A stretch of DNA of 64,000 nt. Origin: Podarcis bocagei. Lineage: Eukaryota. Location of the stretch: assembly GCA_964188305.1 (NCBI GenBank), contig OZ076889.1. One strand, given 5' to 3'. Positions 53,001 through 62,000 of this stretch are shown here, piece after piece. The position numbers were made by a program. Every line of letters starts with the position of its first letter. The stretch's first letter is position 1.

Positions 53001-56000
53001 AGCTAAACCATGTCTATCAGGTAAGCATGAAATGGCATGAGCAATCAGCATTGGAATTGAAAGAGAGATTGAAGTGAATCTGGAATTTGCTTGGCTAACC
53101 ATTCTTATCACATGTTTCCTGCTCCAGTTCGAATACATGGCCCAGCACCTAGTGTTTGCCAACTGCATCCCCCTTATACTGAAATTCTTCAATCAAAACA
53201 TCATGTCATATATCACTGCCAAGAACAGGTAGGTGGGAATATCTCTAGCACACCTGTATCCCAAAATGCTATGACAGGAAATGTGACACACTATATTTGC
53301 AGTGGGACACCTAGATGGTATCCAGATGGGATATCTAAGAATAACTAGTTATCCTTCACAATTTTAACTTGGAGAAAGGAAGATGTTTCATCCCACTGAT
53401 AAAAAAACACCTGCTGAGAAATCATTTCTCTCCACCAACCCTACTACTTGTCTGTAAAATGGATAGGTTTAAAATGTGCTTGTTTGAAAAGACATTGAGT
53501 GACGTTCATGTAGATCCCATGGCCATGAGTATTACTGGACTCAACAGACACCATTGCCCTTGTGGGCTAAAACATTACTAAGCAGTTGGCTGATCTGCTT
53601 ATTTTTCTTGGCAGTAGGTAAGTATCTGGGATAGGCAGATATAGAAAGATGTTCATGTGTGAAGCCTCTTGGTTGTTGCCAGCTGAATAGCAGTGGGTGG
53701 AGATGATGTCACAATCATTTTTCTCATATGTTTGAACCTGGCAGGGGCAACCATTTTGGACACGGTATATTTCACTAGATAGGTCATCCATTCTGATCCG
53801 TTTGGGGTTTTTTGTGTTTTTTAGCATCTCTGTTTTGGATTACCCATACTGTGTGGTGCATGAGCTGCCTGAGCTGACTGCAGAGAGTCTGGTGAGCTAA
53901 ACTACCTGGACAGAAACATATATAGCTGAGGGGTGGAGATGGCATTGTCAATAAGGGGCAATTTCTCACTTTCCTTACTTGGTAATATTTCCTTTGTTTT
54001 GCTTTTTTTCCTATAGGAAGCTGGAGACAACAATCAGTTTTGCTGGCGAAACCTGTTTTCCTGCATTAATCTACTTAGGATACTGAACAAATTAACAAAG
54101 TGGAAGCACTCAAGGACTATGGTGAGTAGAAGGGCCTCCTCACATAGTGCTGTTAAGGCTTTATTGATGATGTGCCATCCTTTTGGCCTTAAGCAAATGG
54201 ATGGTGACCAAGGCACAGACGAAGTCTTGGAAAACTGAGAGTGTTCCTTTGCTTTCTCAGATGTTGGTGGTATTCAAGTCTGCACCCATTCTGAAACGAG
54301 CCCTCAAAGTGAAGCAAGCCATGATGCAGCTTTACGTTTTGAAGCTGCTCAAAGTGCAGACCAAGTACTTGGGGCGACAGTGGAGGAAGAGCAACATGAA
54401 GACCATGTCAGCAATCTACCAAAAAGTGCGGCACCGGCTCAATGATGACTGGGCTTATGGCAATGGTATGTCCTGGATCTGTCTCTCCTTTCCACCCACT
54501 CCCAAGTCTTTCATAAGCCTTTAACTGCTATGCCAAGCCAGTTCCCTTAAATCACCCATCTGCCTTCCTGTTAACAGATCCCATCAGTAGTTGCTAGGAG
54601 CGTATGGTGATGGCTCCACTTATCCTAAACAGAGCAAGCTGAGGAATGTGCTTCCCCACCTCTAAATTGATGTTGCTTGATAGACAGGGTGGTACAGTAA
54701 CTATAGTGTTGAACTTGGACCTCAGAAATACGTGTTCAGATCCTTGCAATGAACCATATAGTGTAGTCTTGGACAAGTCACTGGGTCTCAGCCTTAAACT
54801 ATTTTCTACTGTGGAACCTCAGTTTTTGAGCATCTCGGAAGCTGAACAATTCGGAACACAAATACAGAAAACCTGGAAATGATTGACTCTGTTTTCAAAC
54901 GCGCCTTGGAAATTGAACTGCTTCTGCTGCATGTTTTTCCATTTTTTTCAATGGATTTTGCTGACCGCCCATTGATACTCAGTTTTTGAACATTTTGGAA
55001 GTCAGACAGTCTTCTGAAACAGAATACATTCAAAAACCGAGGTTCCATTGTACTAGAGTGACCATAAATGACAAGCTGGAGTCACTCCATACTTCTTCAT
55101 AGAAGGTTGGAATACAAGTGTGAGATATTATTGATGTCTATGTCTGCTGGGAAGTCCCTATGCATCTCATCCCTAGAAGTTGTATTTCTTAAAGATCTGC
55201 CAAATGGGATGACATAATGCTGGACTGCCTGTATGACATTGTATGGCATTTTCATTGTGGGGGTATGATTGGAGCTCTTTTGCTCCTTCAGCTGATTGTT
55301 TGCTTCATGACTTTTGCAGATCTGGATGCACGTCCTTGGGACTTCCAGGCTGAGGAGTGTGCTCTGCGTGCCAGCATAGAGCGTTTCAACTCTCGCCGTT
55401 ATGACCGGGCACATAACAATCCTGATTTTCTACCTGTGGATAACTGTTTGCAGAGTGTTCTGGGCCAGCGCGTAGAACTGCCTGAAGATTTCCAAATGAA
55501 TTATGACTTGTGGCTGGAAAGGGAAGTTTTTTCTAGACCCATCTGTTGGGAAGAATTGCTCCAATGACGTTTGAGAAGAGGGAATCGGAGCTAGTACGTG
55601 TGCCCAAGGACAAGGCAGCTTCTCTTCGGTCAACCGGGCATAGAGAGAAGAGATAAAACTGGTTTTTCATATGGCTTGTAATCTGCAGTTCTTTCCTTCT
55701 CCTCCAGGTGGTGGCATGGATTTATACTGCTCTCAAGGTTCTAGCAAATATGGCTTTCCTACATCTTTTGGGCTACTTCAATTACTGATTGGTTTAGAAG
55801 GTGCTAAATGGATTCAGAGCAGTTCACTTTGAGACTCAGATCAATTGAAAAACGCTGAGCAAAATACCAGTGTCAGCTTTGATTGCTATTCACATGCTCC
55901 TTGTTGGGCTTCTGTCCATTGGCATTGGCCAGCTATTCTGTTCCAAAAGTAGTATGGCAGCTTTTTTCTGCTATGCCCCCACTCTTATCCCAAAAGGACA

Positions 56001-59000: not shown

Positions 59001-62000
59001 TAGATAAGAAACAGTTCCCCTTTCTGGAAATGAGACAGCGAGTTTATTCTATTTATTATGAAGATTTATAGTCTTACCTTTTTACAAAATACCTAAGGTA
59101 ACTTACTATAAAGATAAAAATACACTATTAATACAAGAGAATGTGCAGTAAAATGGTAAGTGCAATTCAATGCAAGCAAGTGTAAAGTGATAACTATTGG
59201 AGCAAAAAATATTATGTCACATAGTACAGTATAAAACTGCAAATATAATGTTGTTATACAAATCTATTGTGCAACCACACTTGAAATACTGTGAACAGTT
59301 CTGGTTGCCTCACCTCAAAAAGGATATTGTAAAGCTGGACAAGGCTTAGAAAAGGGTAACCAAAATGATCTAGGGGCTGGAGCAACTCCATAGTAGGAGT
59401 ATATAACATTTGAGGCTTTTAGTTTCAGAAAAAGACAAGGAGGAACATTCTAGAGGTGTAAAAGTTTGTGCATGGGATGAAGAAAGTGGATAGCTAAGTT
59501 TTTTCTCCTATATAATACTAAAACCTAGAGTCATTCAGTGAAGTTCAATGTTGGAAAATTCAGGACAGACAAAGAACTTCACAGAGTCCATAATGAAAAC
59601 ACCCAGAAGATGTAGTAATGGTCCCCAACTTGGATGGCTTTTATAAGAAGATTAGACAGACTCTTGGAGCATAAGGCTATCAGTGTCTACTAACCACAAT
59701 GGCTTTGTTCTTCCTCCACTGTTGGAGGCAGTATGTCTCTAAATACCAGATGCTGGGAATCACAAGTGGGGAGAGTACTCTTTGACTCATGTCCTGCTTA
59801 TGGACTTCTCATAGGTATTTAGTTGGTCACTATGAGAACAAGACGATGGAATGAAGAGCTTTTGGCCTGATTGAACAGGGCTCTCCTTGCGTTCCTAATA
59901 TCAGATGGATCCTGCTCCTCAGTTGCTTTGTTTTCTACAAAGGCAAAGGCCCAGAGATTGTGTATTGATGATTGGAATGCATAAGCAGTTTTTGAGAGAC
60001 AAATTGATTCATCTAATAATACTTGGAGTGCAGACAAGGCACACTCAGGCTGCTCCTTTGGCTCAGAGGCAACTTAGCATTTTAGTACACATTTCTCCAG
60101 ATGTAGTGTTTTGTGTGCAACATTCCCCAATATACACATTTTTGTATGCTCACTTCACTAACATTGTGCATTTCTATGCACACTTTCCCCTAATGTTTAT
60201 ATATTTTGACACATATCATTTCACCGCATTGCAAAATGCAGAGAAGTGTGAATTTCAAAGAATATCGATTTCAGTTCGTGCTGTATCAGGAAGTGCAAAT
60301 TAGGGAGTGATCATATCAAAGTGCAATCTGAATTGAAATTATCCCCCATCCAAACTTCCCCCCCTTTGTTCAACACCTAAAGTTCACAGTGACTGGCCCT
60401 GGTAGAATTGTGACATCAGAGGAAAATCAGCCAATCGCTGGCTTCCTCTTTGTCCCTTCCCATTCCCTCATTCAGGCAGGGCTTGATTTACTAGCCCATT
60501 GAGCAAGGCAATGCTGCTCACAGTGAAGAGGCTGCTTGGGCAGCAGTGCCGCCTTCAGGTGTCTGGCGAGGAGAGGATCTCTCTGGTGAAAAGCCTGGTG
60601 TGTGAAGAGCTCAATGTCCCCGAGAACCAGCAGACCCTGTTGTTCCAGGGGAAAGTGCTGGAGGGGGAGCACAAATTATCAGACTATCTCATTGGCCCAG
60701 AGTCCATCCTCTATCTGGTGATTAAAAAACCTGAGCAAGCTCACCCTGAGGAGCCCTCAAAGCCGACCGCTGCCCAGCCCCACTCAGTGTGGTATCGACT
60801 CTCGCAAGTCCTGGAGAAACATTTCAGAACTTCCGACGCAGTGAGGGTTCTTGAGCGGGTGCTGAACGACTACTACAAAGGCCTTGGCTTGCTGAGCCTG
60901 GAAAGCATCGAAGAGTTAGCAGGGGACCTCCTAAGTCCTGAGGAAGGTGAACTGGTGGCTACAGGTGAGCTCCCCCAGCAAGAGGGGCACCCCACAGCCC
61001 CAGTGTCTGAATCCAGGAAGGATAAAGCGACCCAGACTGAGCCACAAGAAATGCTAGGAGGAAGGTGGTGCTGGAAGAACTCTTGAGTAGACTTATTTAG
61101 AGATGTCTAAGCGAAAATTAAAATAGTGATGGTGTATGGAACATGGAGCTGTGTCTTTATGTACCAAGGAGGAAGGAGGTTTAGTAAATGAAGATGACCA
61201 TTTTTAAAAGGACCAGAGCTTCAGTTGGTATTGAAACTAGTGCTGTGCCAGATTTTTCACAGGCAAACAGTTTTGGCATGAAAGGGAATCCTTGGGGAAG
61301 GAGAAAAGTTCACTGAACAGCCCCTGAATGCATTTACCCCTACTGACTGCTGCTTTGGTGCCATTCCCCCCCCCCCCCGGGCATCTCATTTCTGGCTGTG
61401 TGATCCCAGCTAACTGGCTGCCTTGTTCCTAGTGTGGTGATGTCATGGCACCACACAGCAAATCAGAGCTGGCAATGTCCAATATTCCTAAGGCCAAATG
61501 AAGCCCTAATTACACTCACTCTTGAATGAAGGAAGCCTGCATTGCCTCAATGATCCCTGTGTTATCATATTGCACTGGCCATTTAATTGTCTGACAGCAC
61601 AGCAAGGCAGGACGCATCAGCACCATTGTCTTGGCAGCAGGTTGATATATTCTGTCTTCTCCCATGAATAGTTTTTTTGGGGGGGGAGCCACACCCTGAA
61701 AAATCACCATATATGGGGCATTCTGAGGGAGGTGCAAAAACACCTATGAAAACAGTCTCCCTGTTTCAGACCTGGCTCTATCATAGCTTTATCTCCTCCA
61801 CCACCACCATCACACTAGGCTTGTATCCAGTTACAGTACATGGTCCTTGGTTCCATCTTTGGCATGGCTATTTAAAATACTGGTGTCCAAAAAGCAGATC
61901 TCTAGCAAGACTACATGAACTGGTTGAGCCTGACAGCCCTGGTTGAGATGGACAATTGTCATGGTTTGTCCTTGTACGCCATCTCTCTGTACATTGAATC

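What the first reader, a model, noticed from the sequence alone, without database searches (positions are those of the whole stretch)
55568..60510. ALX3 is missing between STRIP1 and UBL4B: candidate gene-loss scar
Seen in sequence: only about 4.9 kb separate the STRIP1 stop from the UBL4B ATG, much of it 3'UTR, MITEs and CR1. I found no homeobox (WFQNRR) or ALX C-terminal (LLNWTT-like) coding remnant on either strand. Established: in mammals the paired-type homeobox gene ALX3 occupies this interval, which is tens of kb long, and Alx3 loss has been reported in lizard, frog and chicken lineages. Inference: the window spans the deletion that removed ALX3, and the flanking UBL4B narrows the breakpoint to a few kb.
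Basis: partly seen in the sequence, partly recalled or inferred. Interest (0 to 1): 0.65.

Follow-up and report, generated by a model that had tools for sequence, protein, structure and literature searches.

The report
Known ALX3 gene loss in reptile
The stretch between the STRIP1 and UBL4B genes really does lack the ALX3 homeobox gene that mammals carry there, but this loss has been in print for a lizard since 2011, so the finding is correct and ordinary.

Summary
STRIP1 ends with TGA at 55565-55567, and an intronless UBL4B-like ORF starts at 60511. The gap between them is 4,943 bp with no N. The STRIP1 exons are 75 of 81 and 68 of 68 residues identical to solved STRIP1. Upstream lie AHCYL1-like exons.

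A six-frame Pfam scan of the gap, with stops read as X, gave 0 families at E<=10. The same scan picked up 33-69-residue exon pieces of STRIP1 and AHCYL1 as positive controls. No homeodomain motif occurs anywhere in the 64 kb. The gap has no CpG island.

Gene tables for human and cattle give the order AHCYL1-STRIP1-ALX3-UBL4B-SLC6A17. So the ALX3 slot is here and it is empty.

McGonnell et al. 2011 (PMC3166657) already reported Alx3 absent from this slot in Anolis, chicken and Xenopus.

Three things were not testable here: the species, the absence of ALX3 from the rest of the genome, and the breakpoints. No vertebrate collection was available. The CR1 label was not confirmed by any tool.

Verdict: real, correctly read, already known, low interest.

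The parts
16486..23446 (+). Exons of an S-adenosylhomocysteine-hydrolase-like gene, read as AHCYL1. Matched pieces lie at 16486-16593, 18198-18302 and within 22262-23446. This is the upstream synteny anchor.
   Evidence: Pfam AdoHcyase E 3.6e-13, 4.3e-11 and 2.1e-25, and AdoHcyase_NAD 9.9e-8, on + frames read with stops=X. The exon 16486-16593 scores 62.0 bits against 3mtg and 50.4 bits against 3gvp. That these two entries are AHCYL1 and AHCYL2 is recalled.
38000..38999 (.). CpG island, probably the STRIP1 promoter and first exon region.
   Evidence: GC 0.53-0.66 and CpG o/e 0.90-0.91 in two 500-bp windows. The intergenic interval shows 0.07-0.34. The promoter role is an inference.
52883..54467 (+). 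STRIP1 internal coding exons (DUF3402 pieces at 52883-53023, 53116-53232 and 54261-54467).
   Evidence: Pfam DUF3402 E 3.2e-26, 9e-8 and 1.7e-27. The piece 54261-54467 is 68 of 68 aligned residues identical to 7k36_I residues 688-755.
55320..55567 (+). STRIP1 last coding exon, after the acceptor ...ttttgcag, with stop TGA at 55565-55567.
   Evidence: 75 of 81 residues are identical to the C-terminus (757-837 of 837) of Striatin-interacting protein 1, 7k36_I, E 1e-48. Sequence was read.
55568..60510 (.). Intergenic interval of 4,943 bp where mammals carry ALX3. No homeobox or OAR remnant, no CpG island, no N.
56861..56866 (+). First canonical AATAAA after the STRIP1 stop. It implies a 3'UTR of about 1.3 kb.
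   Evidence: Pattern scan. Its use as the real poly(A) site is inferred.
58162..58395 (.). MITE-like element with perfect 15-nt terminal inverted repeats.
   Evidence: the repeat finder pair I4: 15 nt, 100% complementary, 204 nt between the arms.
58429..58729 (.). MITE-like element (33-nt arms, 82% complementary) with a nested palindromic element at 58499-58646 (63-nt arms, 86%).
   Evidence: The nested element has a 74.5%-identical relative at 2066-2160.
59240..59900 (+). Putative 3' fragment of a CR1-type LINE. The label is unconfirmed.
   Evidence: The frame reads ...LLYKSIVQPHLKYCEQFWLPHLKKDIVKLD..., which resembles the CR1 ORF2 tail from recall only. There was no Pfam hit and no tblastx relative in the window. 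The best Atlas hit scored 0.89, to a chordate cluster; this is a lead only.
60431..60435 (+). CCAAT motif 76 nt upstream of the UBL4B ATG, a possible promoter element.
   Evidence: Read directly. Its function is inferred.
60511..61086 (+). Intronless UBL4B-like gene, 191 codons plus stop. This is the downstream synteny anchor.
   Evidence: Pfam ubiquitin E 2e-14 (positions 1-71 of 72) and Tugs E 1.5e-12 (1-46 of 47) lie in one uninterrupted frame. PDB Ubiquitin-like protein 4A 7ru9_E gives E 1.6e-33 over residues 1-152.

Best explanation
The window is the reptile counterpart of the mammalian AHCYL1-STRIP1-ALX3-UBL4B-SLC6A17 region, most likely from a lizard or other squamate. All three recognisable genes are on the + strand and in the mammalian order. 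The ALX3 slot is reduced to 4.9 kb of non-coding DNA: the STRIP1 3'UTR, a few small transposon insertions, and the UBL4B upstream region.

Shown here:
- the identity of the flanks;
- the gapless 4,943-bp interval;
- the absence of any detectable homeodomain or OAR coding remnant or CpG island.

Inferred:
- ALX3 once lay here, because the UBL4B retrogene and the gene order are shared with mammals.
- Its DNA was physically removed by one or more deletions. A mutated gene that merely decayed in place would still take up its length, and the interval is too short to hold a gene body plus promoter island.
- The animal gets by on ALX1 and ALX4. This is the redundancy argument of McGonnell et al. 2011.

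This is the same lineage loss already published for Anolis carolinensis.
For: STRIP1:
- Pfam DUF3402 at E 1.7e-27, 3.2e-26 and 9e-8, and N1221 weakly at 6.8e-4.
- The last two coding exons are 75 of 81 and 68 of 68 residues identical to 7k36_I.

AHCYL1-like exons upstream.

UBL4B-like gene: ubiquitin plus Tugs domains in a single exon.

The interval:
- 0 N in the window.
- 0 Pfam families in its six frames, and nothing but UBL4B in 60400-64000.
- 0 homeodomain or OAR motif hits in the whole window.
- CpG o/e of 0.07-0.34 across it.

Papers:
- The order AHCYL1, STRIP1, ALX3, (LINC01397), UBL4B, SLC6A17 appears in a human deletion table (PMC9394163, passage). The reverse order appears in a cattle table (PMC7655849, passage).
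[quoted passage not shown] This fits a reptile.
Against: - The species is unknown. 'Squamate' rests on published distributions (UBL4B present, ALX3 absent) and on my recall of lizard-type repeats, not on any sequence comparison.
- No search of the rest of this genome or of its reads was possible, so relocation of ALX3 is not excluded here.
- ALX3 exons without a Pfam domain (the N-terminal and linker parts) could not be looked for, because no ALX3 reference sequence was available to the tools.
- About 2.4 kb of the interval is not assigned to anything (bookkeeping) and could hold short, decayed fragments.
- That Fam40a is the old name of STRIP1 is recalled.
- The size of the mammalian interval is recalled and was not checked.
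Confidence: 0.8

Rival explanations
1. ALX3 is not lost but lies elsewhere in this genome (translocated), or sits in sequence that the assembly lacks. The empty slot would then reflect a rearrangement or a 'hidden' GC-rich gene.
For: Nothing in the calls supports it directly. It stays open only because no whole-genome or read search could be run. The window ends 2.9 kb after UBL4B.
Against: - The interval is gapless, so the gene is not hiding in a local gap.
- No homeodomain motif occurs anywhere in the 64 kb.
- For Anolis, tblastn of the whole draft genome found only Alx1 and Alx4 (PMC3166657).
Confidence: 0.07
2. The short interval is an assembly artefact: a collapse or misjoin between STRIP1 and UBL4B that dropped the ALX3-bearing DNA.
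For: None from the calls. Sequence alone cannot exclude it.
Against: - There is no N, and composition does not jump across 54-62 kb (GC 0.40-0.47).
- STRIP1's 3' end, a plausible poly(A) signal and the UBL4B upstream region follow each other in the expected order and orientation.
- An independent earlier lizard assembly gave the same absence (PMC3166657), if the species is the same or related.
Confidence: 0.04
3. The window is the paralogous AHCYL2-STRIP2 region, where no ALX gene is expected. Nothing would then be missing.
For: AHCYL and STRIP genes are neighbours in two paralogous regions of vertebrate genomes (recalled).
Against: - The last two coding exons are 93% and 100% identical to solved STRIP1.
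- The AHCYL exon scores higher against 3mtg (62.0 bits) than against 3gvp (50.4 bits).
- UBL4B, the mammalian neighbour of ALX3, follows directly.
- No STRIP2 chain is in the PDB copy for a direct contrast.
Confidence: 0.01
4. ALX3 first became a pseudogene and was then worn away by many small deletions and transposon turnover, rather than being removed by one deletion with definable breakpoints. This is a rival on mechanism only and is compatible with loss.
For: - No breakpoint signature is visible.
- The interval holds several independent insertions, which shows ongoing turnover.
- 2.4 kb is unassigned.
Against: No fragment of a homeobox or OAR survives. That is expected after a clean deletion, but also after very long decay, so the data do not discriminate.
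Confidence: 0.35

Closest known systems
Loss of Alx3 in Anolis carolinensis (with independent losses in chicken and Xenopus tropicalis), McGonnell et al. 2011, Evol Dev 13:343 (PMC3166657)
   Same: Same chromosomal slot and conserved flanking genes, no Alx3 sequence, and the same proposed reason it is tolerated (overlap with Alx1 and Alx4).
   Different: - The paper bounds the slot by Fam40a and Slc6a17 and does not mention Ubl4b (0 occurrences). Here the slot is bounded by the STRIP1 stop and the UBL4B start, 4,943 bp apart, in a gapless sequence.
- I could not establish whether this window is Anolis or another reptile.
Mammalian 1p13.3-type region AHCYL1-STRIP1-ALX3-UBL4B-SLC6A17
   Same: Order and relative orientation of AHCYL1-like, STRIP1 and UBL4B. 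UBL4B is single-exon.
   Different: ALX3 is absent. In human, LINC01397 also lies between STRIP1 and UBL4B. The interval here has no CpG island.
UBL4B, the retrogene copy of UBL4A (PMC8267814)
   Same: One uninterrupted ORF with ubiquitin-like and Tugs domains. It is reported in reptiles and mammals only.
   Different: At 191 residues, its tail extends beyond the part that aligns to solved UBL4A (query 1-152). No expression data were available.

Membership tests
Syntenic gene loss of ALX3 (as defined by McGonnell 2011) | Flanking genes of the ALX3 slot are present in conserved order and orientation. | tested here: met
   AHCYL1-like exons, STRIP1 and UBL4B are all on the + strand, in the order given in mammalian tables. 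SLC6A17 lies beyond the window and was not seen.
Syntenic gene loss of ALX3 (as defined by McGonnell 2011) | No ALX3 coding sequence in the syntenic interval. | tested here: met
   0 Pfam families in six frames. 0 motif hits. Exons without a Pfam domain could not be tested.
Syntenic gene loss of ALX3 (as defined by McGonnell 2011) | The interval is contiguous sequence, not an assembly gap. | tested here: met
   0 N in 64,000 bases.
Syntenic gene loss of ALX3 (as defined by McGonnell 2011) | No ALX3 orthologue anywhere else in the genome. | not testable with these tools
   No vertebrate genome, read or protein collection was open. This is known only from the paper, for Anolis.
Paired-class homeobox gene or pseudogene (ALX3 remnant) | [quoted passage not shown] | tested here: not met
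   Neither family appears. Recalled helix-3, N-arm, helix-1 and OAR motifs gave 0 hits.
STRIP1 (striatin-interacting protein 1) | N1221 and DUF3402 domains, and a C-terminus matching STRIP1. | tested here: met
   DUF3402 is strong and N1221 is weak (E 6.8e-4, below the cut-off) in the 10 kb scanned. The exons are 75 of 81 and 68 of 68 residues identical to 7k36_I. The 5' half of the gene was not scanned.
UBL4B | UBL4-type architecture (ubiquitin-like plus Tugs) in a single coding exon, located beside the STRIP1/ALX3 slot. | tested here: met
   for the architecture, for the single open frame, and for the position in mammals. No phylogenetic separation from UBL4A was made.
MITE (non-autonomous DNA transposon) | Short element with terminal inverted repeats, present in many copies, flanked by target-site duplications. 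| tested here: inconclusive
   TIRs were found for three elements. Only 1 of the 3 has another copy in the 64 kb. Target-site duplications were not examined, and genome-wide copy number is not testable.
CR1 LINE | Similarity to CR1 ORF2 and its 3' end, and to other genomic copies. | tested here: inconclusive
   No Pfam hit. 0 tblastx hits between the two candidate fragments or to anything else in the window. The Atlas gave no usable hit for 62468-62737 and a 0.89 lead for 59194-59346. No repeat library was available.

The most novel reading that the evidence does not exclude
The window may come from a squamate other than Anolis carolinensis, with the same compact STRIP1-UBL4B junction shared across lizards and snakes. 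That would date the ALX3 loss to the squamate or lepidosaur stem as one old deletion. It would also turn the 2.4 kb of unassigned DNA into a defined place to look for orphaned ALX3 regulatory elements that survived the gene.
Probability: 0.35. Interest if true: 0.3.

Novelty: already known. Interest (0 to 1): 0.15.

Why it matters
ALX3 is one of three ALX homeobox genes that pattern the face and skull. Its repeated, independent loss in frog, lizard and chicken is a textbook-style case of one paralogue being dispensable (PMC3166657). A gapless, base-level view of the empty slot adds a small refinement: the slot is under 5 kb and bounded by UBL4B. It could also serve as the anchor for a cross-reptile comparison that dates the loss. 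It does not change what is known.

Tried and rejected
I repeated it with stops read as X.
The regions 1-15000 and 24969-45599 on the + strand, and all of 1-55567 on the - strand, were therefore covered only by the motif scans, not by Pfam.
- A self-BLAST of the interval against the window found 1 repeat match, too few to build repeat families.
- tblastx of the two CR1-like pieces gave 0 hits outside self.
- Atlas look-ups gave no usable hit and a sub-threshold lead. One search did not complete.
- Rfam at gathering threshold gave 0 matches, ARAGORN gave 0 tRNAs, and TRF gave one (CTA)12 array.
- A literature search for Alx3 in squamates beyond the 2011 paper found only a mammal jaw study that uses alx3 rates (PMC10184249, passages) and a review repeating the 2011 result (PMC7719703, passages).
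- The paralogous AHCYL2-STRIP2 locus was considered and rejected.
Exons and frames were searched one by one, and the joined step was left out.
- I take the window for a reptile, not human. Nothing was treated as a human contig.
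Full report
What is in the sequence. The window has no N. On the + strand an open frame ending ...PICWEELLQ stops at TGA 55565-55567, after a splice acceptor at 55318-55319. The next gene starts at ATG 60511. It is one uninterrupted 191-codon frame that ends at 61086.

Identity of the flanks. I searched exon by exon and frame by frame.
- STRIP1. The + frames of 45600-55567, read with stops as X, hit Pfam DUF3402 at E 1.7e-27, 3.2e-26 and 9e-8, and N1221 weakly at 6.8e-4. 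The last coding exon is 75 of 81 residues identical to the C-terminal residues 757-837 of Striatin-interacting protein 1 in PDB 7k36_I. The exon before it is 68 of 68 identical to residues 688-755.
- UBL4B. The downstream ORF carries a full ubiquitin-like domain (E 2e-14) and a full Tugs domain (E 1.5e-12). It aligns over residues 1-152 to solved UBL4A (7ru9_E, E 1.6e-33). A single-exon UBL4 gene at this position is what the literature calls UBL4B. [quoted passage not shown]
- AHCYL1. Further upstream, + strand exons hit AdoHcyase and AdoHcyase_NAD. One of them scores 62.0 bits against 3mtg and 50.4 bits against 3gvp. From recall these are AHCYL1 and AHCYL2. This, with the STRIP1 identities, rules out the paralogous AHCYL2-STRIP2 region.

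Is ALX3 expected here? A table of deleted genes in a human 1p13.3 case lists AHCYL1, STRIP1, ALX3, LINC01397, UBL4B, SLC6A17 in that order (PMC9394163, passage). A cattle table lists the same genes in reverse (PMC7655849, passage). The UBL4B retrogene is shared by reptiles and mammals, so one insertion in their common ancestor is the simplest reading. ALX3 would then have lain between STRIP1 and UBL4B in that ancestor. This step is inference.

Is anything of ALX3 left?
- Pfam on all six frames of the interval, with stops as X, gave 0 families even at E<=10.
- The same scan on 60400-64000 gave only the UBL4B domains and two chance-level rows.
- The method works on exon-sized pieces. It recovered STRIP1 pieces of 39-69 residues and AdoHcyase pieces of 33-36 residues.
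- A degenerate DNA pattern for the homeodomain recognition helix, with up to 3 mismatches, has 0 matches in the 64 kb.
- Recalled peptide motifs for the helix, the N-terminal arm, helix 1 and the OAR core have 0 matches in six frames of the whole window. Shuffled windows gave 0-2.
- The interval has no CpG island (o/e 0.07-0.34). STRIP1's presumed promoter at 38000-38999 has o/e 0.9.
- ALX3 regions without a Pfam domain could not be searched, because no ALX3 reference was available to the tools.

What fills the interval.
- The first AATAAA after the stop is at 56861, so about 1.3 kb is probably STRIP1 3'UTR (inferred).
- Three elements with terminal inverted repeats lie at 58162-58395, at 58429-58729, and nested in the latter at 58499-58646.
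- Only the nested one has a relative in the window, at 2066-2160.
- The stretch around 59240-59900 reads like the tail of a CR1 ORF2 from my recall. No tool confirmed this.
- By this bookkeeping about 2.4 kb is unassigned.
- Rfam, ARAGORN and TRF add nothing inside the interval.

Mechanism. The interval is too short to hold an ALX3 gene body and its promoter island in any state of decay. The DNA was therefore removed, by one or several deletions. The sequence does not show which, and no breakpoint signature is visible. Why the loss is tolerated is not addressed by this sequence. The published argument is overlap of expression with Alx1 and Alx4 (PMC3166657, abstract).

What is already known. 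McGonnell et al. 2011 searched the Anolis, chicken and Xenopus tropicalis genomes and found only Alx1 and Alx4. [quoted passage not shown] That Fam40a is STRIP1 is recalled. A 2020 review repeats this (PMC7719703, passage). My searches for newer work on Alx3 in squamates found nothing further. The library misses most subscription journals, and supplements were closed.

What stayed unchecked.
- The species.
- Absence of ALX3 from the rest of the genome.
- Assembly correctness.
- Any cross-species alignment.

The genome collection holds only bacteria and archaea, so none of these could be addressed.

Verdict. The phenomenon is already published, so interest is low.

Noticed in passing
window 60511-61086: The UBL4B-like retrogene is intact (191 codons, both domains complete) in what looks like a reptile. 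This places the retroposition before the mammal-reptile split, older than the 'at least 170 million years' quoted for therians in PMC8267814. The paper itself notes UBL4B in reptiles.
   Followed up: partly
window 38000-38999: The only CpG island in the parts profiled (GC up to 0.66, CpG o/e 0.9). It is presumably the STRIP1 promoter and first exon.
   Followed up: no
window 15300-15440 (+ frame 3 of 15003-24968): A frame reading ...[42 protein letters not shown]... lies upstream of the AdoHcyase exons. From recall it resembles the N-terminal extension particular to AHCYL1 (IRBIT).
   Followed up: no
window 2066-2160 and 58501-58602: Two copies (74.5% identical) of a palindromic MITE-type repeat. 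A similar-looking palindrome sits near 63700-63800.
   Followed up: partly
window 62468-62860: A second fragment that reads like a CR1 3' end on the + strand, just downstream of UBL4B. It has no detectable similarity to the one at 59240-59900, and the Atlas gave no usable hit.
   Followed up: partly
window 63421-63456: A (CTA)12 microsatellite, 87% matches.
   Followed up: no
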